IMG/VR virus record: IMGVR_UViG_3300042013_000061
Span: 75,570 to 139,569 of that record
Reading direction: 5' to 3' (one strand)
Length of the DNA: 64,000 nt
From: a virus
This document shows, piece by piece, positions 9,297 through 63,531 of the stretch. The notes under the pieces are model-generated. The model made no database searches, was not told the origin of the DNA, and worked only from the letters and a program-made list of their open reading frames with translations. Every line of letters starts with the position of its first letter. Position 1 is the stretch's first letter. A program made the translations under genes and the position numbers.

Positions 9297-9976
9297 CGAA
9301 AATCTCCGATTGAAGCTCTACGCCAAACGGCAAAAAGCTGTTTATCCAAGTTTGGGTACATGGGAATTGTGTTGTCAAAATAAAGCTCGTATTTCAACAC
9401 GAGGAAATCGTTTTTCAACCGCGCAATACTGACTCGCATGTCCGAGTTTAAAATCACGACTACTTCCATTGACTCGCGCACCTTATCGGCACGTGGAGGA
9501 AAACGATCAGCATAAACCGTTTTCTTTTCACCCGCGTGCAGTTTCACACGCGACGAAAGCTGTAGTTCCTCGGGCAATGACTTGAATACTTTCAGTTCAA
9601 CCAAACGGCGCAGAAGGTAATCAAGTTCGAATCTTTGCGGCTTCAGTTTGACTGTTCCGCGAATGGTGAATCCGTTTACGACGTTAACCAATTCATCGGC
9701 TTTCATCACGAATTCGTATTGGTGCTGCACGGGTAAAAGGTGATACAAAAGAAACTTCGAATGCACCTGTTTTGAAAAGGACTTGTACCGGGTATTTACA
9801 GTAAAAAAGTCCGCTAACAATTTCGTTGTTTTGATTTTGATACCAGCTTGCTGCAAAAGAATGCGGAAACATTCACCCAACACAAGCGGTTCAAGTTTGC
9901 TTGTACGGGGCAGCTCTAAAAACGCATCCCATGAACCTTGAAAGTCTTCGCTAATATCGGATGGCATTTTCATCAT
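9293..9976 (-). CDS. hypothetical protein
   Basis: 227-aa ORF overlapping neighbours by 4 nt. Confidence 0.65.
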   Translation of the reverse strand: MMKMPSDISEDFQGSWDAFLELPRTSKLEPLVLGECFRILLQQAGIKIKTTKLLADFFTVNTRYKSFSKQVHSKFLLYHLLPVQHQYEFVMKADELVNVVNGFTIRGTVKLKPQRFELDYLLRRLVELKVFKSLPEELQLSSRVKLHAGEKKTVYADRFPPRADKVRESMEVVVILNSDMRVSIARLKNDFLVLKYELYFDNTIPMYPNLDKQLFAVWRRASIGDFR

Positions 9977-10299
9977 TTCTTTTTCGCCAAGATCAAATGT
10001 TTAGCGGCACCATGCCCCGGTCGTTTTGCATGACAATCGGCGCACAGAGTCCAAAGGTTACTCATGGTTGTTTGCCCACCACGTGCTGCTGGTCGAATAT
10101 GATCGACTTGCAGATTGGTTTTGCAAGGGCATTTGCGGCACGTGTAATTATCACGCGCTAAAACTTTCTCACGAACTGCCATCCAATCCCAACGCTCGCC
10201 ATAAACCTGCACAGACGTGCGACGAACCTTGGCAACAACAGCCGGTTTTTTCGTAACGCTTTTTGCTTTGAAAGGTTTGATGCGTTTCGGTGTGGTCAT
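9973..10299 (-). CDS. HNH endonuclease
   Basis: RDNYTCRKC...VDHIRP..RGG..NLWTLCADCH; Lys-rich N-terminus. Confidence 0.9.
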   Translation of the reverse strand: MTTPKRIKPFKAKSVTKKPAVVAKVRRTSVQVYGERWDWMAVREKVLARDNYTCRKCPCKTNLQVDHIRPAARGGQTTMSNLWTLCADCHAKRPGHGAAKHLILAKKK

Positions 10300-11105
10300 A
10301 GCAGAACCTTCCGTGCGCGATCAATTGCCAAGCCGTATTCAGCCTGAAGGTTATCGGCGCATTCAGACAAAGTATTTTTCAACTTCTTCTGAATCTCAAG
10401 ACGCATATCAGAATCCTTTACGAATTTCGACACGGCACCGTCAATGTGGAAATACAGGTCGGTTAGCGACTGCGCCACAACCATTTGGTATGGCCGCAAT
10501 ACGATGCTTTCCAATTCAGCAATTTGTGCGCTGATATCCCGTGTGGCCCGCAGGTCGGCAATCACTTCGCGAATCTGCGAATAAATAACGTTTAGTGCGT
10601 AAACGTCTTTGTTATAAATCCGATCTTCCATCTGCTCTTCGAAACGACCAGCAAGGTGAATCAGATTTTCAAAAATGCGGCGCGACTCGGCATCGAATTC
10701 ATCAACAACCGGAGGCAATTCAACGAATACCTCGACGGCATCAATTACTTGTTGTTTGCCTTTCGCTTTTTTCTTCAGTGCAGCAACACCAGCGACTTTA
10801 GGGATTGTCGCCAGTTCGGTTTTCACCGCTTTTTTCTTTTCTTTGATACGTTCGACCGTACCTTCGATTGTTACCGGGGTCTTACGCTTTTTCTTTTTGA
10901 GTTCACTGCCTTTCTTGTACGTGTTGTCTTCGATAATAACGACTTCACGTTCGACTTTCTTTTTCTTCTTTTTCGTTTTCAGAATAGAAGAGCCGCGACC
11001 GCCGCCGTCGTCAGCATCCTTGTTACGGAATTTCCCGCGTTCATCAATGTCACCACCACTGCCGCCACTAACACGGCGAATGGAATCCCCACTATTCTTT
11101 TTCAT
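10296..11105 (-). CDS. Lys-rich helical protein (possibly terminase small subunit-like)
   Basis: Basic disordered N-half, helical C-half (YALNVIYSQIREVIADL), next to an HNH gene; function is speculative. Confidence 0.55.
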   Translation of the reverse strand: MKKNSGDSIRRVSGGSGGDIDERGKFRNKDADDGGGRGSSILKTKKKKKKVEREVVIIEDNTYKKGSELKKKKRKTPVTIEGTVERIKEKKKAVKTELATIPKVAGVAALKKKAKGKQQVIDAVEVFVELPPVVDEFDAESRRIFENLIHLAGRFEEQMEDRIYNKDVYALNVIYSQIREVIADLRATRDISAQIAELESIVLRPYQMVVAQSLTDLYFHIDGAVSKFVKDSDMRLEIQKKLKNTLSECADNLQAEYGLAIDRARKVLL

Positions 11106-11126
11106 ATTTCCCCCGGCTTAAATCGG

Positions 11127-11151
11127 CAAAAGGGGGCACGTGGCCCCCTTC
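11127..11151 (-). terminator. Rho-independent terminator
   Basis: AAGGGGGC-acgtg-GCCCCCTT inverted repeat with T-tract on the minus strand. Confidence 0.7.
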
Positions 11152-11167
11152 TGTTTGTAGCAATTAC

Positions 11168-16487: not shown

Positions 16488-17858
16488 TTAACCGAAAGCT
16501 GGTTTTTTGTTACCGGACTTCTTCGGAACAGCGCCACCTTTCGGTTTAGCGGCTGCTTTCGGAGCGGCCTTTGGTGCGGCTTTAGCGGCGGCTTTCGGCG
16601 CTGCTTTTGCTGCTTTTTTCGGAGCGGCTTTTGCTGGTGCAGCTTCAGCTTTTGGCTTGGCTGGACGACCACGTTTTTTCGGAGCGACTGCCGGAGCGGC
16701 TGCTTCTTTTACTTTGGCTGGGCGACCACGCTTTTTAGCTGGTGCGGCGGCTGGCGCTGCTTCAGCTTTTGGCTTGGCCGGACGACCGCGTTTCTTTGCC
16801 GGTGCTGCTGGTGCTGCTTCGGCTTTTGGTTTTGCAGGACGACCGCGTTTTTTCGCTGGAGCGGCTGGAGCAGCAGCTTCAGTTTTTACTTTCGCAGGAC
16901 GACCGCGTTTTTTCGGTGCAGCGGCTGGAGCGGCGGCAACTTCAGTTTTCACTTTAGCTGGACGGCCACGCTTTTTGGCTGGAGCGGCTGGAGCAGCAGC
17001 TTCAGTTTTTGGCTTGGCAGGACGACCGCGTTTTTTCGCTACTGGAGCCGGTGCAGCATCAGCTTTTGGCTTGGCTGGACGGCCACGCTTTTTGGCTGGT
17101 GCAGCTTCAGCAGCCGGAGCGGCAGCAGGTGCTTTACGCGCTTTTTTCACAGCACCGCCGGTTTTGCCGAAGTGCTTAGTGGAAATAGCTGCGGTTTCTT
17201 TTTGTGCAGCAACTTTGCGAGCAGCAACCTTTTTAGGGTCGATGGTTTGCAGACGCTTGCCTTTCTTGGAGATTGGCTTGGCGCTGAAGTTACCGATGAA
17301 ATCCTTCAGGCGGAAAACGCCGCGCTTTGCAGACTGCGCTTTGATTTTGCCGATGGTTTTCTGGTGAGTTTTCACCGCTTTCATACGCTCGCCAGCGAGT
17401 TGTTTACGCTCGGAAGCGTAACGCTGTTTCTCAGCGGCGCGCATTTTCATACGAACGGCAGGAGCGACTTTTGCAGTGCGGATTTTTTGCAGTGCTTTTT
17501 TGTGAGCACCGGAAACGGCTTGAGCCTTCGATTTCAGTTGACCACGGATGGACTTCTGAGCGGTGACGGCTTGACGTTTCTGTTCCGAAGCGTGCTTACC
17601 AGCGTGGCGAAGTTTGCGGTTGGCTTTGTAGGCACGAACGGCTTTTTTCGCTTCAGCTTCGGTAGCACCGTGACGCATGGCACGCAGAAAAACCGAGTTT
17701 TCCAGATGCGCCAGTTTTTCCTGATGCGTCATGGTTTTGTAACGGTTTTTTGCAACCTTGTTCAGCTTCGATTTGTTTTTGTTGCGGTATTGTTTAGCCT
17801 TTTTGGCAGCAGCGCGTGCCTCGGGGCTTTTGTCCTTACGGACGACTTTCGTGACCAT
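16488..17858 (-). CDS. histone H1-like basic protein with 8 AT-hook (KKRGRP) repeats
   Basis: Eight KKRGRPAK units separated by Ala/Pro linkers; KAAPK tail; very basic N-half. Confidence 0.85.
   Translation of the reverse strand: MVTKVVRKDKSPEARAAAKKAKQYRNKNKSKLNKVAKNRYKTMTHQEKLAHLENSVFLRAMRHGATEAEAKKAVRAYKANRKLRHAGKHASEQKRQAVTAQKSIRGQLKSKAQAVSGAHKKALQKIRTAKVAPAVRMKMRAAEKQRYASERKQLAGERMKAVKTHQKTIGKIKAQSAKRGVFRLKDFIGNFSAKPISKKGKRLQTIDPKKVAARKVAAQKETAAISTKHFGKTGGAVKKARKAPAAAPAAEAAPAKKRGRPAKPKADAAPAPVAKKRGRPAKPKTEAAAPAAPAKKRGRPAKVKTEVAAAPAAAPKKRGRPAKVKTEAAAPAAPAKKRGRPAKPKAEAAPAAPAKKRGRPAKPKAEAAPAAAPAKKRGRPAKVKEAAAPAVAPKKRGRPAKPKAEAAPAKAAPKKAAKAAPKAAAKAAPKAAPKAAAKPKGGAVPKKSGNKKPAFG
16660..17100 (-). 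repeat. about 60-bp degenerate tandem repeat encoding AT-hook units
   Basis: Recurring GGACGACCGCGTTTTTT-like units. Confidence 0.8.
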
Positions 17859-42903: not shown

Positions 42904-43586
42904 GAATCAAACTGAACCTTAACGAAACCAGTACGGCTGGCAGTGTCTACAGCACGCCGAGCATGGAATCCGCAGAGCAACAGGAACCGTCAGACGAAGA
43001 ACTGGCGATTCGTGATACCGAAGAAAAAGAACGCGAAGCACAACAGTTGGAAAAAGAACGGCAAGACGCTGCGAAAAAAGCAGAAGAAGCCGCGAAGAAA
43101 GTTCCTAAAACACCAAAGGAGAAAGGCGAAGATGCTGGCGGCGATACGGGCGGTGACGATGATGACGATCTTGGAGGTGACGACGATGACTCCGACGATT
43201 CCGATGATGGTGATGATGACAAAACTTCGCCCGACAAAGATTCTGACGATGAAGAAGATTTAGACGAAGAAGATTTGGACGACGACGAAGACGAAGAGGA
43301 CGAAGAAGCAACCGCTTCGACGCTTCCATATCCTGACGCACAAAATGCAAAATCTGATGCGCCAATTCTCCCGCCGAAAGAAGTCCCGGCTGACCCTGAA
43401 GTGGAAGAAGAAACGCTCAACGTTGACGATAACACTGCATCGAATTTGAAAAATACCCCGGACGATCCAAACGTAAAAGAAGGGGATAACAAAATCGAAG
43501 CAACAATCGAAGCCGTTGCGTCTGCCTATTCGGAACGCCAATCAATCCGGGCCTCAATGCCTTACCCGGACGCGTGGAAAGCTTGA
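42900..43586 (+). CDS. highly acidic disordered protein
   Basis: Long D/E tracts; PYPDA repeated twice. Confidence 0.65.
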   Translation: MRIKLNLNETSTAGSVYSTPSMESAEQQEPSDEELAIRDTEEKEREAQQLEKERQDAAKKAEEAAKKVPKTPKEKGEDAGGDTGGDDDDDLGGDDDDSDDSDDGDDDKTSPDKDSDDEEDLDEEDLDDDEDEEDEEATASTLPYPDAQNAKSDAPILPPKEVPADPEVEEETLNVDDNTASNLKNTPDDPNVKEGDNKIEATIEAVASAYSERQSIRASMPYPDAWKA

Positions 43587-44433: not shown

Positions 44434-44444
44434 GAACACACCGA

Positions 44445-46556: not shown

Positions 46557-48205
46557 TGGCTGCTAAAAAACCTGAACCGAAAAAGGGAGTCGCCAAAAAG
46601 GCGGCTTCCAAAGCTGTAGTTAAATCCAAATCGAAAAGCGTTACGAAAGCGCCGACCACGCGTGACAAAATGTTGGAAGCTGGACTTCAGTTTGTGACTG
46701 AATCCATGTACCCGCTAAAAGCGCAAAGCGTAATTGAACAAGGGCTGGACGTTTACACGCGTGACGCCCTGAAAGTTTATGGTTCGTATGTGGTTGAACA
46801 GCGAGCGGTTGCGGATTTCCGTGACGGCATGAAACCTGTTCACCGTGCGGTTTTGTGGTCGATGGCGGGACTCGGTTTGCGTCCGTCTGCTGGTCATAAA
46901 AAATCTGCGCGAACTGTTGGTGATGCAATCGGTAAATATCACCCGCACGGCGATAGCGCTGCATACGAAGCGATGGTGACAATCACAAACACGGTGCCGC
47001 CATTTGTTGACGGTCGTGGTGGTTTTGGTTCGCCTGATACCCCTGCTTCTGCTGCGCGATACACCGAAGCGAAAATGTCGAAGTTTGCACACACGTTTTT
47101 GCTCGACCCGGATTATCTGAAAGTCGTTCCTTACGAACAAAACTTTTCGAACGACGATCAAATCCCGCTGTACCTTCCTGCACTGTTGCCAGCGCTGCTT
47201 TTCGTGACCAACATCCCGGCCCCGGCCTACGGTGTTAAAGCGGGCAACCCTGCATTCAGCATGCCGACTGTTGCGAAAGTAATTATCGACATGTTGAAGG
47301 GCAAAACGTACACCGCGCAAAAACTCAGCGATTCGTTGAAAATTTATCACCCGTATGGCTGCCTCGACGTTTCGAAAGATTCCGATATCGAAGCCTTGAT
47401 GGCAACCGGCGCCGGTAAAGTCAGTTATGCACCGCTGACAAAATACGATGAACCGAAGCGCACGATCTACCTGCAATCGTTTGTGCCGACCACGCTGGCA
47501 GGCACCGAAAGCATCGACAAAACCCTGAATAAAATTCTCGATCTGGACGGCGTGAAAAACGCATACAACTCGCCCGGTAAAAAGAATAAGAACGCGGGGC
47601 CATTCGGTGCGCTGTGTGAAATCAACGCGCAGAAGAATACGACCGACGAACGCTTCGACGAAATCTGCCACTCGGTTGACAACATCGTCAAATCGTCTGT
47701 GCATTACCGTCTCGGTGTGACCATCCGTAAAAAAGATGCGCCGAACGAATTCCGTTATCTGGACTACGTGACGTATTTCAACGCGTGGATCAAGTACCGC
47801 ATCAAATTGGAAGAGCGACTGATTGCCTACAAGCTGAAAAGCATTGGCGAGCAATTGCATTTGCAGGAAGTCTACCTGTTCGCTGTACAGAACATGAAAG
47901 AACTTCTGAAGATTTTGCCAAAGGCATTGTCTGCAAAAGACCCGGAAGTGGTTTTGGCGAAGGCGTTGAAAATGCCGGTCGAAGACGCAGCGATTATTCT
48001 GGATCGAAAAATTCGCCAATTGGCTGCAATGGAAGCGGACGCCCTGAAAGAAAAAATCAAAGGGTTGAAAGCCGATATCAAAACCTTGCTCACTGAGCAG
48101 AAGAATCCGGGGGAGCGGGCCGCACGCGATACCGAAGCACGCGTGAAGTCCTATTTGAAAAAACCAGACCCAACGCAACCGGGATTGCCTGTCAGTCCCG
48201 ATTAA
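46556..48205 (+). CDS. gyrA: type IIA topoisomerase subunit A (GyrA/ParC-like, no beta-pinwheel CTD)
   Basis: DGMKPVHR, YHPHGDS, AARYTE catalytic Tyr; only 549 aa. Confidence 0.92.
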   Translation: MAAKKPEPKKGVAKKAASKAVVKSKSKSVTKAPTTRDKMLEAGLQFVTESMYPLKAQSVIEQGLDVYTRDALKVYGSYVVEQRAVADFRDGMKPVHRAVLWSMAGLGLRPSAGHKKSARTVGDAIGKYHPHGDSAAYEAMVTITNTVPPFVDGRGGFGSPDTPASAARYTEAKMSKFAHTFLLDPDYLKVVPYEQNFSNDDQIPLYLPALLPALLFVTNIPAPAYGVKAGNPAFSMPTVAKVIIDMLKGKTYTAQKLSDSLKIYHPYGCLDVSKDSDIEALMATGAGKVSYAPLTKYDEPKRTIYLQSFVPTTLAGTESIDKTLNKILDLDGVKNAYNSPGKKNKNAGPFGALCEINAQKNTTDERFDEICHSVDNIVKSSVHYRLGVTIRKKDAPNEFRYLDYVTYFNAWIKYRIKLEERLIAYKLKSIGEQLHLQEVYLFAVQNMKELLKILPKALSAKDPEVVLAKALKMPVEDAAIILDRKIRQLAAMEADALKEKIKGLKADIKTLLTEQKNPGERAARDTEARVKSYLKKPDPTQPGLPVSPD

Positions 48206-51387: not shown

Positions 51388-51963
51388 ATGACCGCACCAA
51401 TCGTTAAAGTTTCGAAAGCTGTTGCCGCCGCCACCAAACTGCTGGCCGCTCGCACCGACGCACTGACCGCTGCAAAAGCTGACCTGACCGCTGCCAACGC
51501 TACCGCCAAGCGTCAAAGCAAACTGGTTCTTTCTGCACCGAAAGTTGTCGCCACCGTTCAAAAGAACGCTCAAGCTTCCATCGAAGGTTTCACCCAAGCC
51601 GTTGCCGTTCTGACCACCGAAGTTGCCGATGCAAAAGCTGCACTGGCGCTGGTAATCAAAACCGAACGTGACGCCGCGACCGCTGCTGCAAAAGCTGCAA
51701 AAACTCTGCAAGCACAAAAAGATCGCGATGCAAAAGCTGCACAGCGTCTGGCCGACAAAGCTGCAAAAGCTGCGCCGGTTGTTGTTGCCCCGGTTGCTGC
51801 TCCTGCTGTTAAAGGCGCACCGAAAGCCAAAGCTGCAAAAGCTGCTGCCCCTGTTGCTGCTGTGAAGGCTGCACCGAAAGCAAAAGCTCCAAAAGCCGCT
51901 GCTGTTGCCCCGGTCGCCAAAGCTGCACCGAAAGCAAAAGTTGCCAAGGCTCCAAAAGCCTAA
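51388..51963 (+). CDS. Ala/Lys-rich histone H1-like protein with coiled-coil N-half
   Basis: KAAPKAK repeats; own terminator. Confidence 0.75.
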   Translation: MTAPIVKVSKAVAAATKLLAARTDALTAAKADLTAANATAKRQSKLVLSAPKVVATVQKNAQASIEGFTQAVAVLTTEVADAKAALALVIKTERDAATAAAKAAKTLQAQKDRDAKAAQRLADKAAKAAPVVVAPVAAPAVKGAPKAKAAKAAAPVAAVKAAPKAKAPKAAAVAPVAKAAPKAKVAKAPKA

Positions 51964-53085: not shown

Positions 53086-53159
53086 TAGATTGAAACCTCG
53101 AAACCCATGTCTGATAGAAAAGACACTCACACTTTAAAGAACGTTTGGAGAGAATCACC

Positions 53160-54932
53160 ATGACTAACTACCTCGGTAAGAACATCAACGTAAACCACGG
53201 CGGCAAAAAAGGCGTCGTTAAAGAAGTCGTTATCAAACAACTGAAGAACGGCACCGTTCGCACTGGCGAAGGTACGGAATTCACCGTTGATGAAATCTAC
53301 AACAAAGGCCGTGGCGTTTTTGTTGACGTTAAAGGCGGCGCTACTAAAAAGCCTGCTGCTGATAACACCCGCAAGGCACCAACTGCAAAACCTGCTGCTA
53401 CTGTTGCGCCGGTCGGTCGCGTTGCTTCTGTTGTTACCGCTGAAGAACTGGAAGGCAAACGCGTAAACGGTTCCCGCGTTGAACGTGTTCTGAAAAAGGC
53501 CGGGAAAGTAAAACTGGAAGACGGCACCACCGTTGAACTGGCTTCGATTACTCGCAAGGGTAAAGGCTACACTTCTGATTCGGCTCTGATGCCAGAAGAA
53601 CCGAAAACCAGTGCAAAAACCGCAAGCGCAAAACCAGCCGGTAAAACTGGCGGCGCGGTTCCAAAAGTGAAAGCCGCAACTTTCGACAGCGCCACCTTTG
53701 GCCCTGCTGGCGAATACACCACGAAAGACGTTCGCCATCAAATCGTTGATATCGACGGCGAAGAAAGCACCGTAGAAAAAGTATTCACCTCCGGTCGTTG
53801 CGTTACTGACGACGGTTCTGAATTCTACGTGACCGACGTTCGTACCCGTCTCGATGGCACCTTCTGCGTTTATTCGGAAGAATACATCGAAGAACTGAAA
53901 GGCATTTGGGCCGCTGCACAAGCGCCTGCAAAAAATGCACAGGTTCGCACTACTGCTGAAATCACCACCAAAGAAGTTAAAGGCAAAAATATTGCCGTTG
54001 GTGACGTAACGCACGTAATCGTTAAAACCTTTACCGGTGGCAACGTCGTAACCGATCACGATTTCAAGTTCAACGTGACCGACATTGCACGTAAAGGCCG
54101 TGGCTACATTTACACCGGCGAAATGCCAACCAAAAAAGGCGGCGCACTTCCAAAGGCTCGCCCTGCACCAGAACCGCAATCGAAAATCCTGAGCGTTGAA
54201 GCTTTCGACGGCGACACCGCAAAAGATATTCGCGACCTGCTCGCAAAAGCTGTACGCGGCGTTATCGCAGAAACTTACGATATCGACGTGGCTGGCGTGT
54301 TCGTTGCGCATGACGATCACATTCTGACTTTCCAAGTCAGTTTCGCTGCAACCGATGCCGATCCTGAATTGGTGAAAGCTTCGATTGAAAAACAGCGTCA
54401 AGAAAACTTTGCTGATTCCGAAGCGCGTGATTTCGAACAACACGAATTGACCGACGCACCGAAAGGCAAAGCTACTACCGAAGAAGAGGAAGAGGAAGAA
54501 GAGGAAGAAGAGGAACGCGAAGAAGAGGAAGAAGAGGAAGAGGAAGAAGAGCCGGAATTCGCCGTAATGCAAGATGATAACGGCGGTGATGATTTCGACG
54601 CGATGCCTACCAACGTTTCTTTCCCTGCTGATTCCTCGGCAGAAATTGCCGGTGCCGTTGGCCGTCTGCAACGTCTGTTCCCCGGCAAAAACCTCGCCGG
54701 TTATGCAGAATCGTGGTACGACTCGCAAGAAGCATTCGACGCGGTTGAATACGATATTGAACCGGGCAACACCGTAACCGTCGAAGGCGCTGAATATATT
54801 CTGGTCGGTTTGAAAGATCAGAAAATCGACGGCGTTATGCAACCGGCCCCGTACCTCGTTCACAGCGTTAAAAAGCAATTCCGCCCTGACGTGACTTTCG
54901 CCATGCTCAAAGAGTGGGTAGCTGCGCAGTAA
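53160..54932 (+). CDS. protein with four small beta-rich repeats and a poly-Glu tract
   Basis: Repeated G.V.T.DG..F.V..I..KG.G units; E-rich tract; GGAG RBS. Confidence 0.75.
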   Translation: MTNYLGKNINVNHGGKKGVVKEVVIKQLKNGTVRTGEGTEFTVDEIYNKGRGVFVDVKGGATKKPAADNTRKAPTAKPAATVAPVGRVASVVTAEELEGKRVNGSRVERVLKKAGKVKLEDGTTVELASITRKGKGYTSDSALMPEEPKTSAKTASAKPAGKTGGAVPKVKAATFDSATFGPAGEYTTKDVRHQIVDIDGEESTVEKVFTSGRCVTDDGSEFYVTDVRTRLDGTFCVYSEEYIEELKGIWAAAQAPAKNAQVRTTAEITTKEVKGKNIAVGDVTHVIVKTFTGGNVVTDHDFKFNVTDIARKGRGYIYTGEMPTKKGGALPKARPAPEPQSKILSVEAFDGDTAKDIRDLLAKAVRGVIAETYDIDVAGVFVAHDDHILTFQVSFAATDADPELVKASIEKQRQENFADSEARDFEQHELTDAPKGKATTEEEEEEEEEEEEREEEEEEEEEEEPEFAVMQDDNGGDDFDAMPTNVSFPADSSAEIAGAVGRLQRLFPGKNLAGYAESWYDSQEAFDAVEYDIEPGNTVTVEGAEYILVGLKDQKIDGVMQPAPYLVHSVKKQFRPDVTFAMLKEWVAAQ

Positions 54933-55003: not shown

Positions 55004-56293
55004 ATGAACTTTTTCGCTACCCTGCGCGCTGCTGCTGTTTCTCAATGCCAAGGCTTTTTCTACGGCCTGATTTTGAACGCGTTGAAAACCGAACCGGAAG
55101 AAATGGTCGATTGGGTTTTGATTGACCCGGCTGAATTCGAAATCGACGAAGCCGAAGAGCATCCGCCGATTCTGATGAAACGCGTTGCGCTTCCTTTGTT
55201 CGCAATTGTTAATGCGGACGAACAGGAACAATACGCCACCAACGCAGCGGACGAAATCGAAACCGCGTTCGGCGTAAACATCGGCCTGTTTCAAGACACC
55301 AGCGCCGGGGAAATCATTGTCTACATTTCGAATTACCCGGTTGACGTAAATCGCACTCGCGAATTGTTCAACGACGAAGAAGACGAAGACGAAGGTTTGC
55401 CGTCTCGTGAAGAAATCGGCGCATCGCTGGCCGTTCTGGAAGACGATGATATCGCTTTCCTGAATTTCATTCGCACGACAGTTGGCGAACAAATCTTCGA
55501 CGATATTACTTTCGACGAAGACGACGAAACTGTTCTGCGTGAATTCCTCATGTCTACCGACAGCGCCGAAGACTTGGAAATCAGCAATGATTGCCTGTTG
55601 GCTCTGCGCAACGAGTACGACGAAGAAGAGGAAGAAGAGGAATTGGAAGAAGAGGAAGAGGAAGAAGCCGCCGCGCAAACTCCGCTTTCGATTGTTCCGC
55701 AAATTCCTGCGCCGGTACAAGGTGACGATTTCGAACCGCTCGACGATTTCGAAGCAGAAGCCCCGGTAGTCGAAGGCGATAAAACCGAACCAGTTTCGGC
55801 GGTTGATTTGGCTGGCGATGATTTCGAAGCCGAACAACGCACCGAAGCCGAACAGGTAGAAGCTGAAGCCGAGCAAGACGCGGCAATTGGCGCCCCGGAC
55901 AACGCGCACGAAGAATCGTTTATCGACGATCAAGGGCAAGCTGTACCGAATGCCGTTGAAACCGCACCAGCGCCCGTACAGGCTGCGCCAGCCGAAAGCG
56001 TGGAAGAAACCAGCGAACACCAGATGGCACGCTTCAATCGCATTCTGGAAGACTTCGCGGCCAAGCTGCCGACTGACACCATTTCGGAACTGAAGGACGG
56101 CGTTGTAACCGTAATGCTTTCTCGCTCTGTTGAAGGCGTGAATAAAGATTACGTGTTGAACGTGAAAATTGAACACGAGAATTTCGCGGGCATCAAAATG
56201 ATGGACGTGTTCTACGTGTTCGACGATCAGGGCCAACAAGTTCTGCGCGCAACGAATGTTGCTGCTGTACTCGACATGATTGCCGCGCTGTAA
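55004..56293 (+). CDS. extremely acidic protein
   Basis: AGGAG RBS; D/E-rich throughout with a poly-E tract. Confidence 0.75.
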   Translation: MNFFATLRAAAVSQCQGFFYGLILNALKTEPEEMVDWVLIDPAEFEIDEAEEHPPILMKRVALPLFAIVNADEQEQYATNAADEIETAFGVNIGLFQDTSAGEIIVYISNYPVDVNRTRELFNDEEDEDEGLPSREEIGASLAVLEDDDIAFLNFIRTTVGEQIFDDITFDEDDETVLREFLMSTDSAEDLEISNDCLLALRNEYDEEEEEEELEEEEEEEAAAQTPLSIVPQIPAPVQGDDFEPLDDFEAEAPVVEGDKTEPVSAVDLAGDDFEAEQRTEAEQVEAEAEQDAAIGAPDNAHEESFIDDQGQAVPNAVETAPAPVQAAPAESVEETSEHQMARFNRILEDFAAKLPTDTISELKDGVVTVMLSRSVEGVNKDYVLNVKIEHENFAGIKMMDVFYVFDDQGQQVLRATNVAAVLDMIAAL

Positions 56294-59257: not shown

Positions 59258-59824
59258 ATGGCCAAGCCAGAAAAAAGCAGCAAAAAATCTTCCGCTCCAC
59301 GTACCAAAGTTTCGCGTCTGACGAAAGTTGAACGCAAGCTGACCGGCACCAGCGCCAAGACTCCTTTCAGCATGAAGACCGCACAGTTCACCGTGACCGG
59401 TTACATGCAACAGCCTGTAGAAATTCCGGGCTACCTGATCGAACGTAGCGCCACGCACATTGTGTTCCGTCACAAGGCCACCAGCGCATCGAAGAAAATG
59501 GTTGTATCGGTTTTCGCAGTGGACAAAGTTCTGGATCATTTGGGCGACGAAAAAGGCGGTTCCGTTACCGTTCTTCAGCGCAAGGCTTTCACCAGCGCAA
59601 CCGGCACCCTGAAATTCAGCGGTAACGATATCATCGTCAAAAATGCTGACGGCGAAATCACCACCTTCTCTCAGAACGATATCGCTCAATACGAAGTGAA
59701 AGCGTTCGATCTGGAAGGCAGCCAAGCTTCGGGCCGTGGCGTTAAATCGTCCTCCGAAAAAGAAGGCAAGAAGTCGTCGAAAGTGACCAACATCAAAGAC
59801 GGCAAGAAAAAAGCAAAAAAGTAA
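59258..59824 (+). CDS. beta-rich protein with Lys-rich termini
   Basis: 188 aa; basic N- and C-tails. Confidence 0.7.
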   Translation: MAKPEKSSKKSSAPRTKVSRLTKVERKLTGTSAKTPFSMKTAQFTVTGYMQQPVEIPGYLIERSATHIVFRHKATSASKKMVVSVFAVDKVLDHLGDEKGGSVTVLQRKAFTSATGTLKFSGNDIIVKNADGEITTFSQNDIAQYEVKAFDLEGSQASGRGVKSSSEKEGKKSSKVTNIKDGKKKAKK

Positions 59825-59947: not shown

Positions 59948-59994
59948 TAATCATCAGCGACAAACACTTACTTATTGATCTGGAGTTTTACCTC

Positions 59995-60447
59995 ATGGCT
60001 GCTAAAAAATCCCCTGCTAAAAAATCCGCTCCTGCCAAGAAATCCAAGAAGCGCGAAATTCCACAAATCAGCGAAGCCGTGCTGAACCTGCTGAACCTCG
60101 ACATTCTGTCGCAAGTTCTTCTCGCCTTCGAAAAAGAAGGTTTCGAAACCATCGAAGACGTTCTCGGCGCCATTTCGCAACTGAGCGAAGAGGCTGAAGA
60201 AGAGGAAGAAGAGGAAGAGGAAGAGGAAGAAGAGGAAGAAGAGGAAGAAGAGGAAGAGGAAGAGGAAGAGGAAGAGGAAGAGGAAGAGGAAGAGGAAGAG
60301 GAAGAGGAAGAGGAAGAGGAAGAAGAGGAAGAAGAGGAAGAAGAGGAAGAAGAGGAAGAAGAGGAAGAAGAGGAAGAAGAGGAAGAAGAGGAAGAAGAGG
60401 AAGAAGAGGAAGAAGAGGAAGAAGAGGAAGAAGAAGACGACGAATAA
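59995..60447 (+). CDS. poly-glutamate protein (80 consecutive Glu) with basic N-terminus
   Basis: GGAG RBS; MAAKKSPAKK, short helical domain, E80-DDE. Confidence 0.8.
   Translation: MAAKKSPAKKSAPAKKSKKREIPQISEAVLNLLNLDILSQVLLAFEKEGFETIEDVLGAISQLSEEAEEEEEEEEEEEEEEEEEEEEEEEEEEEEEEEEEEEEEEEEEEEEEEEEEEEEEEEEEEEEEEEEEEEEEEEEEEEEEEEEDDE
60196..60435 (+). repeat. 240-bp pure GAA/GAG purine tract
   Basis: Only GAA and GAG codons for 80 codons. Confidence 0.9.
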
Positions 60448-60580: not shown

Positions 60581-61195
60581 ATGGCTGGTAAGAACGACGT
60601 AACCATCAACGGTAAAGCCGAAATCACCCGTCTGCGTAAACAGCAGAAGGCTCTGGAAAAAGCTGTTAAAGCTCAAGAAAATTCGCTGGAAGTTCTGCAA
60701 GGTCAGAACGCCGAAGTGAACGCACAAATCGACGCCCTCGATTCGCAAATGAGCGGCGAGCCTGTCAAAGCTGCCAAGGGCAAAGCCAAAGCCAAAGCTG
60801 ACGAAAAGCCAGCCAAAGGTAAAGGCAAAGCCAAGGCTGAAGAAAAACCAGCCAAGGCCAAAGGCAAGAAAGCTTCGAAAGAAGAAGACGAAGCCCCTGC
60901 CAAGAAATCCAAAAAAGCTTCGAAAGAAGAAGTGAAACCGGCCAAGAAATCCAAGAAATCCAAAGACGAAGACGACGCCCCAAAGGCCAAGAAATCGAAA
61001 AAGGCTGACAAAGACGAAGCCCCGGCCAAGAAAAAGAAATCCAAGGACGTAGAAGCTGACGCTCCGAAGAAAAAGAAAAAGTCGAAAGACGCCGACGAAA
61101 AGTCGAGCAAGAAAAGCAAGAAAGGCAGCGACAAGAAGGCTGACAAAGCTTCCGGCAAAAAAGCCAAGAAAAAAGATTACGACTTCGAAGATTAA
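60581..61195 (+). CDS. Lys-rich disordered protein with N-terminal coiled coil
   Basis: PAKKSKK repeats; histone-like composition. Confidence 0.75.
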   Translation: MAGKNDVTINGKAEITRLRKQQKALEKAVKAQENSLEVLQGQNAEVNAQIDALDSQMSGEPVKAAKGKAKAKADEKPAKGKGKAKAEEKPAKAKGKKASKEEDEAPAKKSKKASKEEVKPAKKSKKSKDEDDAPKAKKSKKADKDEAPAKKKKSKDVEADAPKKKKKSKDADEKSSKKSKKGSDKKADKASGKKAKKKDYDFED

Positions 61196-61248: not shown

Positions 61249-61251
61249 TGT

Positions 61252-62010
61252 ATGCACTGGCTACATTCCCTAGACGCAATTGTCTATCGACTCGGTGCAG
61301 CGTGTTTTACACAAACGGAATTCGCACGCGTATTATACGAACTTCGCGAAGACCGAAAACATGCGATGGCTTCCGCTTTTGCTGAATCGTTACGCAGTCA
61401 GTCCCGACAGGAACAGTCGCGCAAAACGCTTTCTTTAAAAGACGAAACGCCCACCAACACACTCCGCGCAAAAGCCGTCATGATGGAAGACGGCGCACGC
61501 CATCTTATTGCTCGGCCTGCCCTTGAAGCGGCACGCATAGAGCTTCTAATGATTGAAACCGTATTGGCTGAAGTCGAGCCAGACGTTCACGGTGAAATCC
61601 CTCTCGCTTTTCACGCATGCCAACATATCGAAACCACGCTAGCCGTTCTCTGGAAAGGTTTCATCGAAACCAAGACCTACACACAGCTTTCGTTCGATAC
61701 CTGTTCTGACATGCTCTTACGCGGCCTCACGGTGCCTGATTACTCCGGCGTGACCGACCGCGTAACCTTCCTGCAAACCTTCAATCAAACCTCGCATAAG
61801 TCTGTGACTCCAAAAGTCCTAGACCAGCTTTATGCGCGCGCAATTCGGGTTTTGGAAAATTCACCACTTTTAATTGCGTACAAAGACGCATTGAGTTTGG
61901 AATACAACGATGAAGCCTTTCGCGGAATACTCCCAACAAGCATCGCAACTATTGAGCCAATTAAAGACTGTAAAGGACTCAGCATGCCAACACCAAATCA
62001 ATCCGCATAA
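61252..62010 (+). CDS. hypothetical protein
   Basis: 252-aa helical ORF. Confidence 0.6.
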   Translation: MHWLHSLDAIVYRLGAACFTQTEFARVLYELREDRKHAMASAFAESLRSQSRQEQSRKTLSLKDETPTNTLRAKAVMMEDGARHLIARPALEAARIELLMIETVLAEVEPDVHGEIPLAFHACQHIETTLAVLWKGFIETKTYTQLSFDTCSDMLLRGLTVPDYSGVTDRVTFLQTFNQTSHKSVTPKVLDQLYARAIRVLENSPLLIAYKDALSLEYNDEAFRGILPTSIATIEPIKDCKGLSMPTPNQSA

Positions 62011-62218
62011 TGAACATGTTTTTACTTTCATCGCAACACTCGACACCAACGGTGAAGAGCCTGTGATGGCGTACAACGTGACGTGCGATAACACACCCAT
62101 TTACGCGCTATCCGAATTACCTCCGGCTGTACTTGCTGCTTACGGAATTTTTGTAAGTCATGTCGAGGAATGGAAAGACGGCGGGGAATTACATGAGTCG
62201 CTTAGACACGATGATTAG
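61910..62218 (+). CDS. small hypothetical protein (start uncertain)
   Basis: ORF fills the gap; the true start is likely downstream. Confidence 0.35.
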   Translation: MKPFAEYSQQASQLLSQLKTVKDSACQHQINPHNEHVFTFIATLDTNGEEPVMAYNVTCDNTPIYALSELPPAVLAAYGIFVSHVEEWKDGGELHESLRHDD

Positions 62219-62864
62219 TCTTTTCAGTTGTGGTTGCCACGTCGAGGGAGATATCCCAACCCTGAGCCGCTGCGAAGAGCATAACGGTTTTATCGTGGTT
62301 TGCCACAATCAAAATGTTCAAGAACGTTCTTTTAAAAGTGAACGCGGAACAGTGTGGCAAGGCACCTTGCTGCATAATCTCCGACGTTTAAAAGACGAAC
62401 AGTTCTCGTACATTTTTGCGTATCCAGAACACCATGTTATGGCTGCGATGAAATGGATTACTCCGAAGGCTTGGCGCGATACACAAATGGAAATGATGTT
62501 CCACCTGAAACGGGTTTTGAAACCGGGCGGGTACATTTCCATCGTCGTCGATCCTGACGTTTCTAACACCGTCGTTTATCAGGCTGCAAAACTCAAACTG
62601 AAAATCGAACCGCGACCGTTCACGCTTGAGTATTTCGAGAAAGAGCCGTACAGCACTTGCTCGTTTGCTTATGCGGATGCGAAGGCCCATTACATTTTGT
62701 ACAAGGGCTACCGCGAAAAGATTCCGCAATCAGGTTCTGCTGTGCTGGATATTTCCGGCATCAAAATGCAGCACACGGAAAAGCGGAAAAAAGATAACAA
62801 AATGTTGGTGCTCACTGGGCACGCTCGGCAATTCGAAATCGTCAAAAATCTTCTAGGAGGTTGA
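62193..62864 (+). CDS. degenerate N4/N6 DNA methyltransferase-like protein
   Basis: LRRLKDEQFSYIFAYPEH (at the DPPY position) and KRVLKPGGYI. Confidence 0.5.
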   Translation: MSRLDTMISLFSCGCHVEGDIPTLSRCEEHNGFIVVCHNQNVQERSFKSERGTVWQGTLLHNLRRLKDEQFSYIFAYPEHHVMAAMKWITPKAWRDTQMEMMFHLKRVLKPGGYISIVVDPDVSNTVVYQAAKLKLKIEPRPFTLEYFEKEPYSTCSFAYADAKAHYILYKGYREKIPQSGSAVLDISGIKMQHTEKRKKDNKMLVLTGHARQFEIVKNLLGG

Positions 62865-62868
62865 CGCG

Positions 62869-63531
62869 ATGGCGGTCAAGACTAAGAAGATCAAAGTTCA
62901 ATCGGTAAAAACGAAAAAGATTATCACGAAGCCAAAGAAGACTGCGGCGAAACGTGACGCGGAAAAGATTACGAAACGAAAACGTACAAGCAGCGCGGCC
63001 CCGGTGCGAAGCGCTGGTGTGGTTAAGGTTCGCGGCATTCCGTACAAACTGCGCAAGTTCGAAAACCTCGGCGCTCGCGCATTGCCTGAAACGTACTTCA
63101 CGCGTACAGGCCAAAGCCTCAAACAATTGATCCGAAACACTCCGCGAATTTTCGTAAACAACGCGGTTGATGTTGAAGCGCATCGCTACAAAAAGCAGAC
63201 GACGAAAACCGGTAAGCCTGCCGTCAAAGGCATCATGTGGACAAACGATCCGTTCCGACCGTTGAAGGTTCGGCGTTACCATGAAACCTACATCGTCGGT
63301 CTGGATAAAGGCGGTGAGAATAAACCGCTTTATAAACACAAACGCGTAATTGCACAATGCACGTGTGAAGCGTACATCTACAACTTCGAATATGCGAACG
63401 CACGATGGGGCGCGGCGTATCTGATTTATTCCAACGGCGAGCCGCCAGCATGGACTAACCCGGCGATGGTAACGGGCCTGTGCAAACATTTGATTGCGCT
63501 CGCGAAAATCTGCATTGAGGAAAATCTGTGA
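62869..63531 (+). CDS. SWIM zinc-finger protein with Lys-rich N-terminus
   Basis: CTC...LCKH; AGGAGG RBS. Confidence 0.75.
   Translation: MAVKTKKIKVQSVKTKKIITKPKKTAAKRDAEKITKRKRTSSAAPVRSAGVVKVRGIPYKLRKFENLGARALPETYFTRTGQSLKQLIRNTPRIFVNNAVDVEAHRYKKQTTKTGKPAVKGIMWTNDPFRPLKVRRYHETYIVGLDKGGENKPLYKHKRVIAQCTCEAYIYNFEYANARWGAAYLIYSNGEPPAWTNPAMVTGLCKHLIALAKICIEENL

What the first reader, a model, noticed from the sequence alone, without database searches (positions are those of the whole stretch)
9973..63531. Candidate charge-address system: Lys-rich tails on DNA enzymes plus polyacidic and histone-like scaffold proteins
Seen: unrelated proteins carry Lys-rich extensions, including DnaX (KPKKKKVGLVKTG), the peptidase (KKKKKKKK...KKKSKGLVKSTG), GyrB (AKKKPAKK), GyrA (AAKKPEPKK), RuvC (RRKSKKK), primase (C-terminal PKKKKKK), the Cas4-like nuclease (KKIAKKKK), the HNH, the SWIM protein and gene 10296. 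The same window encodes an E80 protein, three other strongly acidic proteins (42900, 53160, 55004), an 8x AT-hook protein, two H1-like proteins and a giant SNF2 ATPase. Established: typical bacterial DnaX, GyrA/B and RuvC lack such tails, and basic/acidic disordered regions drive condensates and histone chaperoning (H1 with prothymosin alpha, nucleolar proteins). Inference: the phage may build a shell-less replication compartment or viral chromatin, with basic tails as localisation tags and poly-Glu proteins as scaffolds or chaperones.
Basis: partly seen in the sequence, partly recalled or inferred. Interest (0 to 1): 0.85.

Follow-up and report, generated by a model that had tools for sequence, protein, structure and literature searches.

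The report
Lysine tails on jumbo-phage DNA enzymes
A Lu11-like giant Pseudomonas phage puts floppy lysine-rich tails on about half of its DNA-handling enzymes and also encodes poly-glutamate, lysine-rich and AT-hook proteins, which suggests, but does not show, that it organises its DNA by electric charge.

Summary
Observation confirmed. The window is half of a Lu11-like jumbo phage (59 of 73 proteins match Lu11). Every quoted tail, the poly-Glu protein (D/E run of 83), the 8x AT-hook protein and the acidic proteins exist.

The tails are lysine-specific: K is 29% in tails and 7% in the proteome, while R is unchanged. They sit on DNA enzymes, 11 of 16, and on 0 of 14 structural proteins. E. coli and T4 homologues have no counterpart. 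They are kept in composition, not sequence, in Lu11, PaBG, Yoloswag and 99 of 120 GyrA relatives, and they swap ends between orthologues.

Lys-dense termini occur on 41-50% of a fixed DNA-enzyme set in this clade and on 7-24% in four other jumbo phages. A looser net-charge measure does not separate the clade.

A three-gene charged module, including the poly-Glu protein, is conserved as far as Erwinia phages.

Best reading (0.55): the tails are non-specific DNA or polyanion tethers, amplified in this lineage. The condensate or address reading (about 0.2) is not excluded and not tested. "H1-like" and "SWIM" rest on composition or motif only. This scan had read the same stretch before (note e1-6142376).

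The parts
9973..10299 (-). HNH endonuclease with a basic N-terminal region and a KKK C-end
   Evidence: PF01844, 40.1 bits. Tail net +13. Lu11 gp103 and the PaBG orthologue are also basic at both ends.
10296..11105 (-). gp104-like protein of unknown function. About 95 aa of Lys/Gly-rich N-region followed by a conserved helical C-domain.
   Evidence: phrog_23026, unknown function. 23 K in the first 95 aa. Orthologues exist in Lu11, PaBG and Yoloswag.
16488..17858 (-). Strongly basic protein (net +111) with 8 AT-hook units and an Ala/Lys/Pro C-end
   Evidence: Pfam AT_hook, 27 bits against a cut-off of 17.4, 7 stretches. Lu11 gp111 has PGRPKK repeats. A TAATTTA motif lies upstream, as for the sheath and scaffold genes.
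28478..29656 (-). DnaX/tau-like clamp-loader ATPase with a 31-aa Lys-rich N-tail
   Evidence: PF13177, 97.9 bits, from residue 56. Query residue 42 aligns to residue 6 of E. coli tau/gamma. A CTGTAAAT motif lies 36 nt upstream.
29908..31098 (-). HExxH metallopeptidase-like protein with a Lys-rich N-region of about 75-100 aa
   Evidence: phrog_17197 'peptidase' aligns only from residue 73. The HEIGH motif is in the sequence. The Atlas gives only weak leads to MA-clan peptidases.
37717..38364 (+). RuvC-type Holliday junction resolvase with a 28-aa basic N-tail
   Evidence: phrog_18317 aligns from residue 33. The PaBG orthologue carries its tail at the C-end instead.
40607..41716 (-). DnaG-type primase (Zn ribbon plus Toprim) with a Lys-rich C-tail
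   Evidence: PF01807 and PF13155. C-tail has 20 K in 54 aa. Lu11 keeps the tail; the PaBG orthologue does not.
41779..42903 (+). Cas4-like PD-(D/E)XK nuclease with a 25-aa Lys-rich C-tail
   Evidence: PF12705, 40.8 bits. PF01930 is below its cut-off. Tail has 12 K in 25 aa.
42900..43586 (+). Acidic protein (net -52) with Asp/Glu-rich centre, gp142-like
   Evidence: No family in Pfam, PHROGs or NCBIfam.
44445..46556 (+). GyrB/ParE-like topoisomerase II subunit with a 44-aa Lys-rich N-tail
   Evidence: PF00204, PF01751 and PF02518. Query residue 45 aligns to residue 3 of E. coli GyrB. tblastn alignments to 40 listed phage records all start at residue 46-51.
46556..48205 (+). GyrA/ParC-like subunit with a 36-aa Lys-rich N-tail
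   Evidence: PF00521 starts at residue 83. Query residue 73 aligns to E. coli GyrA residue 22, and 70 to T4 gp52 residue 15. 99 of 120 relatives have an N-terminal net charge of +7 or more.
51388..51963 (+). Ala-rich helical protein with an Ala/Lys/Pro C-tail (H1-like by composition only)
   Evidence: No family hit.
53145..54932 (+). gp157-like acidic protein with repeated small modules and two poly-E runs
   Evidence: Orthologues in Lu11 gp157 and PaBG.
55004..56293 (+). gp158-like strongly acidic protein (net -87)
   Evidence: No family hit.
59258..59824 (+). gp163-like protein with basic N- and C-tails around a conserved domain. First gene of the charged three-gene module.
   Evidence: phrog_22271, unknown function. 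7-sequence alignment A1. Relatives lie beside GyrB in Yoloswag and Peetri. The AlphaFold model failed, pLDDT 36.6.
59995..60447 (+). Poly-Glu protein: 20-aa Lys-rich N-tail, a three-helix domain of about 45 aa, and a D/E run of 83
   Evidence: AF2 of residues 1-70 gives pLDDT 74 with helices 27-32, 35-47 and 53-69. Two CTGTAAAT motifs lie at 59905 and 59941. The run is 58-109 in six relatives.
60581..61195 (+). gp165-like protein: N-terminal coiled coil, Lys/Ser/Asp/Glu-rich region (31% K) and the acidic-aromatic end DYDFED
   Evidence: phrog_36478. The end motif is kept in Lu11, PaBG, Yoloswag and six IMG/VR relatives.
62869..63531 (+). SWIM-like (CxC...CxH) protein with a basic N-region of about 60 aa (net +19)
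   Evidence: phrog_18980, unknown function. Pfam SWIM scores 11.4 bits against a cut-off of 19.6. Tail data.
2857..8883 (-). Giant SNF2-family ATPase (2008 aa) with only a weak basic C-end
   Evidence: PF00176 and PF00271. The PaBG orthologue is consistent in size with the 221-kDa virion band 1, a mapping I inferred (PMC7412058 Table 1).

Best explanation
The window belongs to a Lu11/PaBG-type jumbo phage. In this lineage most phage-encoded DNA-transaction enzymes have gained short (20-100 aa) lysine-rich terminal extensions that look disordered.

The most likely role of these tails is non-specific electrostatic tethering to DNA, or to another polyanion. Tethering would raise the local concentration, dwell time or processivity of the topoisomerase, clamp loader, primase, resolvase, nuclease and polymerase on the phage's roughly 300-kb genome.

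The same lineage keeps a set of highly charged accessory proteins: an AT-hook protein, an Ala/Lys/Pro-tailed protein, and a three-gene module. The module encodes a basic-tailed small-domain protein, a basic-tail plus helical-domain plus poly-Glu protein, and a coiled-coil Lys-rich protein with an acidic-aromatic end. These probably coat, buffer or bridge that DNA-protein mass. The poly-Glu protein would act as a counter-polyanion that competes with or chaperones the Lys tails.

Shown here: composition, position, specificity for DNA enzymes, conservation, and absence from E. coli and T4 homologues.

Inferred: DNA binding, and any role of the acidic proteins.
For: 1. The tails are enriched in Lys only. 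K is 28.9% in tails and 7.4% in the proteome; R is 5.2% and 5.3%.

2. They are specific to DNA enzymes.
- In this contig, 11 of 16 DNA-class and 0 of 14 structural proteins score +7 or more (Mann-Whitney p = 2.8e-5, Fisher p = 8.7e-5).
- In Lu11 the counts are 12 of 19 and 1 of 5.
- In PaBG, by a 12-aa window measure, they are 15 of 28 and 1 of 18.

3. The tails are extra to the catalytic cores. GyrA, GyrB and DnaX align to E. coli homologues, and GyrA and DnaX also to T4 ones, only after residue 42-73. The Pfam and PHROG profiles start after the tails.

4. Composition is conserved while sequence and position drift.
- Lu11 orthologues keep the tails.
- RuvC is N-tailed here and in Lu11 but C-tailed in PaBG.
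- 99 of 120 GyrA relatives at 54-98% identity have basic N-tails, and the distance to the YG[SA]YV anchor ranges from 20 to 87 residues.

5. On a fixed orthologue set, Lys-dense ends occur on 7 of 14, 9 of 19, 7 of 17 and 8 of 18 DNA proteins in the clade. In other jumbo phages the counts are 4 of 17, 3 of 16, 1 of 15 and 1 of 14.

6. There is precedent. Lysine repeats in Streptomyces TopA stabilise the enzyme-DNA complex and give processivity (PMC5714199; title and start of abstract). Lys-rich repeats of M. smegmatis Ku modulate DNA binding (PMC3553676; title and start of abstract).

7. The poly-Glu gene carries two copies of the promoter-like motif that also precedes the clamp-loader gene. 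In Lu11 this motif is annotated before the polymerase, SbcD, clamp-loader and SSB genes.
Against: - No experiment or structure shows that the tails bind DNA.
- A metallopeptidase-like protein and several proteins of unknown function carry equally strong tails.
- The sliding clamp, FEN, SbcC, SbcD, ligase and, in Lu11, topoisomerase I and the sigma factor lack them.
- By the looser net-charge measure, the share of tailed proteins is 16-24% and 1.6-2.0 times the shuffles in all eight jumbo phages tested, clade or not. Only the Lys-dense measure separates the clade.
- Class labels were transferred by me from RefSeq annotation, and genes were called with my own script.
- The four clade genomes are not independent samples.
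- Simple tethering does not explain why a poly-Glu protein with a run of 58-109 is conserved alongside.
Confidence: 0.55

Rival explanations
1. Charge-address or condensate model. The Lys tails are localisation tags that partition enzymes into a shell-less replication compartment. The compartment forms by complex coacervation of phage DNA with the AT-hook and Lys-rich proteins and the poly-Glu or acidic proteins. The poly-Glu protein acts as hub or chaperone through its own basic tail and helical domain.
For: - Oppositely charged low-complexity proteins are co-encoded and co-conserved with the tails: the three-gene module in this window, Lu11, PaBG, six IMG/VR relatives and Yoloswag.
- Across eight genomes, those with D/E runs of 38-99 have Lys-dense tails on 3.2-8.6% of proteins. 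Those with runs of 9-21 have them on 0.4-1.4%.
- The poly-Glu gene shares a promoter-like motif with the clamp-loader gene.
- No tubulin was found in this contig, Lu11 or PaBG. PaBG and Yoloswag are not placed in Chimalliviridae in their records, so a chimallin-type nucleus is not expected.
Against: - There is no direct evidence of any compartment.
- The co-occurrence amounts to about two independent lineages with both traits against three without.
- RSL1 and Saruman have basic GyrB C-tails without long acid runs.
- The tails are explained more simply by DNA binding.
- A chimallin homologue was not searched for.
- The 2026 jumbo-phage review has no occurrence of 'condensate', 'phase separation' or 'histone' (word search only), so there is no support in print.
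Confidence: 0.2
2. Packaging or virion model. The strongly basic proteins (the AT-hook protein, the gp165-like and gp163-like proteins), and perhaps some tailed enzymes, condense the genome for packaging or are co-packaged and injected. The acidic proteins act as their chaperones.
For: - Band 1 of the PaBG virion proteome is a 221-kDa 'RuvB helicase-like' gp202 (PMC7412058 Table 1). By size I map it to the giant helicase orthologue.
- The AT-hook gene is preceded by TAATTTA, as are sheath 1 and sheath 2; the scaffold-like gene has TAATTTT. 11 of the 21 motif copies lie in the 6.8% of the contig that is intergenic.
- A paper on other large phages suggests that H1-like proteins may compact the genome for packaging (PMC12619734, passages).
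Against: - None of the 14 identified PaBG virion bands is a Lys-tailed enzyme or a module protein. Only Coomassie-visible bands were analysed.
- Replication enzymes must act in the cytoplasm.
- The poly-Glu gene carries the motif shared with replication genes, not TAATTT.
- Supplementary tables of that paper were not available to me.
Confidence: 0.1
3. No dedicated function. The tails are low-complexity expansions from replication slippage in A-rich codon runs, or N-terminal Lys codons kept because they aid translation initiation, and are tolerated on soluble proteins.
For: - The poly-Glu run varies from 58 to 109 among close relatives, as slippage would give.
- Tail sequences are not conserved.
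- Many N-tails begin MAK or MAA.
Against: - C-terminal tails on the primase, Cas4 and PolA, and on SSB and DnaB in Lu11 and PaBG, cannot aid initiation.
- The tails are absent from all structural proteins tested.
- Composition is kept at 54-98% identity in 99 of 120 GyrA relatives.
- The RuvC tail moved to the other end rather than being lost.
- Tails use AAA for 57% of Lys codons against 69% in the proteome, which is against simple poly-A slippage.
Confidence: 0.08
4. Another polyanion is the target. The Lys tails bind polyphosphate granules or RNA rather than DNA, as host H1-like proteins do.
For: - In P. aeruginosa the H1-like protein AlgP spaces polyphosphate granules (PMC9239181; title and start of abstract).
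- PhaF is reported as an RNA-binding translation activator with a disordered RNA-binding region (PMC12818456; title and significance statement).
- Lu11 and PaBG infect Pseudomonas.
Against: - The trait is equally strong in Erwinia phage Yoloswag.
- The tails sit on enzymes whose substrate is DNA.
- No polyphosphate enzyme was confirmed. The Lu11 'polyphosphate kinase' label on gp158 has no family support for the window's orthologue.
Confidence: 0.05

Closest known systems
Lysine-repeat C-terminal domains of actinobacterial topoisomerase I, and Lys-rich tails of mycobacterial Ku and HU (PMC5714199, PMC3553676)
   Same: Low-complexity Lys-rich terminal extensions are added to a conserved DNA enzyme. 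They are absent from E. coli homologues, and their reported role is non-specific DNA binding and processivity.
   Different: Here the tails are on about half of a whole phage replication and recombination set, at either end, and are 20-100 aa long. They come with dedicated poly-acidic proteins. DNA binding is not shown here.
Acidic C-terminal tips of SSB proteins as interaction hubs (E. coli SSB, T7 gp2.5, T4 gp32; recalled, not from a call)
   Same: Lu11 and PaBG SSB end in WDDDE/WDDDDE. The gp165-like protein ends in DYDFED, DFDDFE or DEDFDFEVA, an acidic-aromatic tip after a disordered linker.
   Different: The linker here is Lys-rich rather than Gly/Pro/Gln-rich. The gp165-like protein has a coiled coil, and no OB-fold family was detected in it. 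No partner is known.
Prothymosin-alpha with histone H1, nucleoplasmin-type acidic chaperones, and polyK/polyE complex coacervates (recalled)
   Same: A long poly-Glu protein is co-encoded with Lys-rich and AT-hook proteins and Lys-tailed enzymes, so charge-driven disordered complexes are physically plausible.
   Different: There is no homology. The poly-Glu protein has its own basic tail and a small helical domain with no fold match. No binding or condensation data exist.
Host H1-like proteins of Pseudomonas: AlgP and PhaF (PMC9239181, PMC12818456)
   Same: A helical N-part followed by an Ala/Lys/Pro-rich tail, as in 51388-51963, in a Pseudomonas setting.
   Different: No family match in NCBIfam or Pfam. 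The resemblance is in composition and architecture only, and the architecture of AlgP and PhaF is recalled.
Nucleus-forming jumbo phages (Chimalliviridae)
   Same: Jumbo phages that segregate replication from the cytoplasm and must address proteins to the DNA compartment.
   Different: No tubulin was found in this contig, Lu11 or PaBG. The PaBG and Yoloswag records place them outside that family. Chimallin was not searched for, and nothing in print links import in those phages to Lys tails (the latter recalled).

Membership tests
AT-hook (PF02178) | Repeated R-G-R-P core flanked by basic residues; Pfam score above the gathering cut-off | tested here: met
   8 KKRGRPAK units. 27 bits against a cut-off of 17.4, 7 stretches.
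Linker histone H1/H5 or chlamydial Hc1 | Winged-helix globular domain (H1/H5) or a match to the Hc1 family | tested here: not met
   No Pfam, PHROG-function or NCBIfam match for 51388-51963 or 60581-61195. The likeness is in composition only.
Lys-repeat DNA-tether tails (actinobacterial TopA type) | Low-complexity Lys-rich terminal extension on a DNA enzyme, absent from standard homologues | tested here: met
Lys-repeat DNA-tether tails (actinobacterial TopA type) | The tail binds DNA and raises processivity | not testable with these tools
   Needs biochemistry.
Charge-driven condensate scaffold (polycation/polyanion pair) | Co-encoded, co-conserved long polyanionic and polycationic disordered proteins | tested here: met
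   D/E run of 83 beside a protein with 31% K. Conserved in Lu11, PaBG, Yoloswag and six IMG/VR loci.
Charge-driven condensate scaffold (polycation/polyanion pair) | Demonstrated co-condensation and client recruitment | not testable with these tools
Chimalliviridae-type phage nucleus | PhuZ tubulin (not essential in all members) | tested here: not met
   PF00091 found in 0 of 3 records (this contig, Lu11, PaBG). The control genomes matched in 13 of 14.
Chimalliviridae-type phage nucleus | Chimallin shell protein | not tested
   I had no family accession to hand. The PaBG and Yoloswag records show no family assignment.
SWIM zinc finger (PF04434) | CxCx(n)CxH motif with a Pfam score above the cut-off | tested here: inconclusive
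   The pattern CTCE...LCKH is visible, but the score is 11.4 against a cut-off of 19.6, E = 0.24.
Clamp loader DnaX, GyrA, GyrB, DnaG primase, HNH, SNF2, PD-(D/E)XK | Pfam domain above the gathering cut-off | tested here: met
   PF13177, PF00521, PF00204/PF01751/PF02518, PF01807/PF13155, PF01844, PF00176/PF00271 and PF12705. Cas4 proper (PF01930) scores 19.9 against 22.7, below its cut-off.

The most novel reading that the evidence does not exclude
Lu11/PaBG/Yoloswag-type jumbo phages, and independently PhiXhv-16-like phages, may run a charge-coded organisation of their replication factory. In this reading a poly-Glu hub protein (basic tail, helical domain, then 58-109 Glu), a Lys-rich coiled-coil protein with an SSB-like acidic tip, and an AT-hook protein form a coacervate with phage DNA. 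Lys tails then act as a generic, position-independent address that partitions the phage's own enzymes into it. This would be a shell-less counterpart of the chimallin nucleus.
Probability: 0.2. Interest if true: 0.85.

Novelty: new variant of a known kind. Interest (0 to 1): 0.6.

Why it matters
How jumbo phages outside the nucleus-forming Chimalliviridae organise and protect a 250-300 kb replicating genome is an open question. This lineage offers a concrete handle that can be tested: a portable Lys-tail on about half of the replisome and recombination enzymes, plus a conserved poly-Glu, Lys-rich and AT-hook protein set. Lu11 and PaBG are cultured isolates on P. putida and P. aeruginosa PAO1.

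Even under the ordinary reading, it would be the widest known use of Lys-repeat DNA tethers in one replication system. It would also give a simple sequence signature for predicting DNA-associated proteins among the roughly 70% orphan genes of these phages.

Tried and rejected
- My hand-picked antisense ORF 59968-60540 for the poly-Glu locus was rejected in favour of the + strand ORF.
- The AlphaFold model of the gp163-like protein, from 7 sequences, failed with mean pLDDT 36.6, so no fold search was made.
- The model of the poly-Glu protein's N-domain had pLDDT 74, but Foldseek against the PDB gave no match at E of 0.001 or better; the best was E = 5.7.
- The ESM Atlas gave no usable hit for the gp163-like protein and only weak MA-clan peptidase leads for the peptidase, with TM of 0.48 or less by query length.
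- Pfam at E up to 5, NCBIfam and PHROGs gave no function for the poly-Glu, gp163-like, gp165-like, acidic or Ala/Lys/Pro proteins.
- The idea that the shared GLVK(S)TG stretch in the DnaX and peptidase tails is a motif was dropped because the Lu11 orthologues lack it. I did not compare the DNA.
- My first statement that the PaBG peptidase lacks a tail was withdrawn. An upstream in-frame start gives a 32-aa Lys-rich extension (against the annotated start).
- The net-charge tail measure was rejected as a marker for the clade after the outgroup control.
- No virion proteomics for the Erwinia or Dickeya relatives was found in the library.
- Word searches found no 'histone' or 'low-complexity' in PMC7824862 and no 'condensate', 'phase separation' or 'histone' in PMC13282480. 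Searches surfaced no paper describing Lys tails on jumbo-phage enzymes. Subscription papers and supplements were not visible.
- Complex prediction, sequencing-run look-ups, a T4 whole-proteome control and a chimallin search were considered and not run.

Full report
**What the window is**

The window is bases 75570-139569 of a 139,569-base viral contig, estimated 47% complete. By megablast its topoisomerase genes match only Pseudomonas phage Lu11 (73% identity) and a short stretch of Erwinia phage Yoloswag.

59 of the 73 proteins I picked by hand match Lu11 bases 60001-160000 by tblastn at E of 1e-5 or better. They lie in the same order, at 20-78% identity.

Lu11, PaBG, phage NCTB and a set of Erwinia and Dickeya phages form the 'Lupandier group' described in PMC7412058 (passages read). 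A 300,331-base IMG/VR contig carries a GyrA 98% identical to the window's.

**Checking the observation**

Pfam confirms these identities:
- a DnaX-like clamp loader;
- GyrB-like and GyrA-like subunits;
- a DnaG-type primase;
- an HNH endonuclease;
- a PD-(D/E)XK (Cas4-like) nuclease;
- an SNF2 ATPase;
- AT-hooks.

PHROGs confirms a Holliday junction resolvase and a 'peptidase' family. Both profiles align only after the tail.

The poly-Glu protein is ORF 59995-60447(+), with an unbroken D/E run of 83.

'H1-like' and 'SWIM' rest on composition or a visible motif only.

**Properties of the tails**

Over 16 terminal segments (766 residues), Lys is 28.9% against 7.4% in the proteome. Arg is 5.2% against 5.3%.

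The tails are extra to the catalytic cores:
- GyrA residue 73 aligns with E. coli GyrA residue 22, and residue 70 with T4 gp52 residue 15.
- DnaX residue 42 aligns with residue 6 of E. coli tau/gamma.
- GyrB residue 45 aligns with E. coli GyrB residue 3.

**Specificity for DNA enzymes**

I called 186 genes on the contig with my own codon-usage script. I labelled them by tblastn to annotated PaBG genes. The tail score is the largest cumulative net charge reached from either end within 50 residues.

- 11 of 16 DNA-class proteins score +7 or more, against 0 of 14 structural proteins (Mann-Whitney p = 2.8e-5, Fisher p = 8.7e-5).
- In Lu11 the counts are 12 of 19 DNA, 1 of 5 structural (the portal) and 1 of 4 other (the peptidase).
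- In PaBG, by a 12-residue window measure, they are 15 of 28, 1 of 18 (the terminase) and 2 of 10.
- The sliding clamp, FEN, SbcC, SbcD and ligase lack tails, as do topoisomerase I and the sigma factor in Lu11.
- 119 proteins of the contig had no class, and 25 of these score +7 or more.

**Conservation**

Lu11 orthologues keep the tails in composition but not in sequence. In PaBG the RuvC tail is at the C-end, and the primase and Cas4 tails are missing.

In both Lu11 and PaBG, SSB, DnaB and UvsX carry tails. The window's contig ends before those genes.

Of the 120 best GyrA relatives (54-98% identity, out of 5456 hits), 99 have an N-terminal score of +7 or more. 93 have at least 6 K in a 15-residue window. 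The distance from the start to the YG[SA]YV anchor runs from 20 to 87 residues.

**Controls outside the clade**

I fetched seven whole phage records. The net-charge measure does not single out the clade. In all eight genomes, 16-24% of proteins score +7 or more, which is 1.6-2.0 times the shuffles.

A stricter Lys-dense measure does separate them. It counts proteins with at least 7 K in 15 residues near an end.

| Genome | Lys-dense proteins |
|---|---|
| This contig | 13 of 152 |
| Lu11 | 17 of 298 |
| PaBG | 8 of 252 |
| Yoloswag | 9 of 254 |
| PhiXhv-16 | 10 of 232 |
| Peetri | 2 of 187 |
| RSL1 | 3 of 217 |
| BcepSaruman | 1 of 272 |

I then used a fixed reference set of 19 DNA and 11 structural proteins and counted those with at least 6 K in 15 residues near an end.

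| Genome | DNA proteins |
|---|---|
| This contig | 7 of 14 |
| Lu11 | 9 of 19 |
| PaBG | 7 of 17 |
| Yoloswag | 8 of 18 |
| PhiXhv-16 | 4 of 17 |
| BcepSaruman | 3 of 16 |
| RSL1 | 1 of 15 |
| Peetri | 1 of 14 |

Structural proteins scored 0 in every genome except RSL1, at 1 of 7. The trait is therefore an amplification in this clade, and partly in PhiXhv-16, of something that occurs more weakly elsewhere.

**The charged accessory proteins**

Genes 59258-61195 form a module of three genes:
- a small-domain protein with basic tails;
- the poly-Glu protein, made of a 20-residue Lys tail, a three-helix domain of about 45 residues (AF2 pLDDT 74, with no PDB fold match), and a D/E run;
- a coiled-coil protein with 31% K that ends in DYDFED.

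The same order is found in Lu11 gp163-165, PaBG gp126-124, six IMG/VR relatives and Yoloswag gp320-322. In Yoloswag it lies just upstream of GyrB. The D/E run is 58-109 in the six IMG/VR relatives.

PhiXhv-16 has proteins that by eye share the gp163-like motif, one with a Lys tail and one fused to an acidic tail. Peetri has one beside GyrB.

The longest D/E runs are 83, 99, 86, 78 and 38 in the five genomes with frequent Lys-dense tails. They are 21, 12 and 9 in the three without. This is suggestive only, since it amounts to about two independent lineages against three.

**Expression hints**

Lu11's annotated 'middle/late promoter' has the core CTGTAAATA. In this contig that core occurs 17 times, against 4.7 expected from base composition. 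By the script's copies are intergenic: two before the poly-Glu gene, one before the clamp-loader gene, and two before upstream genes with no class. The sixth, at window 1678, lies in the first codons of the DNA polymerase gene. Lu11 also has two copies before gp164.

It occurs 21 times, and 11 of these fall in the 6.8% of the contig that is intergenic. It precedes the two sheath genes, the scaffold-like gene and the AT-hook gene. None of these motifs has been tested as a promoter.

**Interpretation**

The simplest account is that the tails are non-specific DNA or polyanion tethers. This has experimental precedent in Streptomyces topoisomerase I (PMC5714199) and M. smegmatis Ku (PMC3553676).

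The condensate or 'address' model remains possible. The co-conserved poly-Glu and Lys-rich proteins make it more attractive, but nothing in the sequence tests it.

A packaging or virion role is a live rival for the AT-hook and module proteins. PaBG virions contain a 221-kDa helicase-like protein, which by size I map to the giant helicase orthologue (PMC7412058 Table 1).

No tubulin is encoded in this contig, Lu11 or PaBG. A chimallin homologue was not searched for.

**Literature**

The searches surfaced no description of this trait. Word searches within PMC7824862, PMC13282480, PMC7412058 and PMC6143709 found none either. One paper proposes H1-like proteins in an unrelated group of large phages (PMC12619734). 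Subscription journals and supplementary files were not visible.

**Limits**

- Genes were called, and N-terminal starts chosen, by my own script.
- Class labels were transferred from RefSeq annotation.
- The genomes are related to one another.
- No binding, localisation or expression data exist.

Noticed in passing
window 59258-61195; Lu11 gp163-165; L003 36653-38590; L004 16399-18617: A conserved three-gene charged module: a basic-tailed small-domain protein, a basic-tail plus helical plus poly-acid protein, and a coiled-coil Lys-rich protein with an acidic-aromatic end. It keeps its order from Pseudomonas to Erwinia phages. In Yoloswag it sits directly upstream of GyrB.
   Followed up: partly
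PhiXhv-16 record 90827-91267 and 92017-92796; Peetri record 170139-170576: By eye, proteins with the gp163-like motif (R/H-x-K/R-x-x-x-S around a beta-rich core) occur in outgroup jumbo phages. One has a Lys tail and one an acidic tail, and in Peetri the protein lies next to GyrB. The fold is unknown because the AF2 model failed.
   Followed up: partly
window 60196-60444; L007-L012: The D/E run differs in length among relatives: 83 here, 108 in a relative whose neighbouring protein is 97% identical, and 58-109 overall. It is encoded by mixed GAA/GAG codons.
   Followed up: partly
window 59905, 59941 and 29692: Two tandem CTGTAAAT promoter-like motifs precede the poly-Glu gene and one precedes the clamp-loader gene. 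Lu11 likewise has two annotated promoters before gp164. A hairpin followed by a T-run lies after the poly-Glu gene.
   Followed up: partly
window about 17920-17926, 16410 and 12057 (minus strand): A TAATTT[AT] motif lies upstream of the AT-hook gene and of two neighbouring genes. Upstream in the contig it also precedes the sheath genes and the scaffold-like gene. 11 of its 21 copies fall in the 6.8% of the contig that is intergenic.
   Followed up: partly
PaBG record 130476-131537 (L005 2891-3952): An in-frame start 96 nt upstream of the annotated PaBG peptidase start adds a Lys-rich 32-aa extension like those in this window and Lu11. The RefSeq start may be too short.
   Followed up: no
window 2857-8883; PaBG record 148541-154450: The PaBG orthologue of the 2008-aa SNF2 protein matches in size the largest band (221 kDa) of the PaBG virion proteome (PMC7412058 Table 1). 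If the mapping is right, this ATPase may be packaged.
   Followed up: no
window, e.g. 44394-46526(-) opposite GyrB, 26634-28460(+), 53127-54878(-): Many genes have antisense ORFs almost as long as themselves, of 500-700 aa. The likely cause is codon bias that avoids codons whose complements are stops. They mislead naive ORF picking.
   Followed up: no
window 53145-54932: The gp157-like protein has four repeated modules ending in K/RGxG-Y/F-like motifs before two poly-E runs. Similar N-modules occur in PaBG gp131 and in two Yoloswag proteins.
   Followed up: no
Lu11 record 130542-131825 and 131891-133411; PaBG record 82947-84158: SSB in Lu11 and PaBG has a Lys-rich linker and ends in WDDDE/WDDDDE. 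UvsX has a Lys-rich N-tail and an acidic C-end. RSL1 and BcepSaruman proteins with similar N-termini (probable SSBs by eye) mix acidic and Lys-rich blocks.
   Followed up: partly
window tails (16 segments): Lys codons in the tails are 57% AAA, against 69% in the whole proteome. This is consistent with avoidance of long A runs.
   Followed up: no
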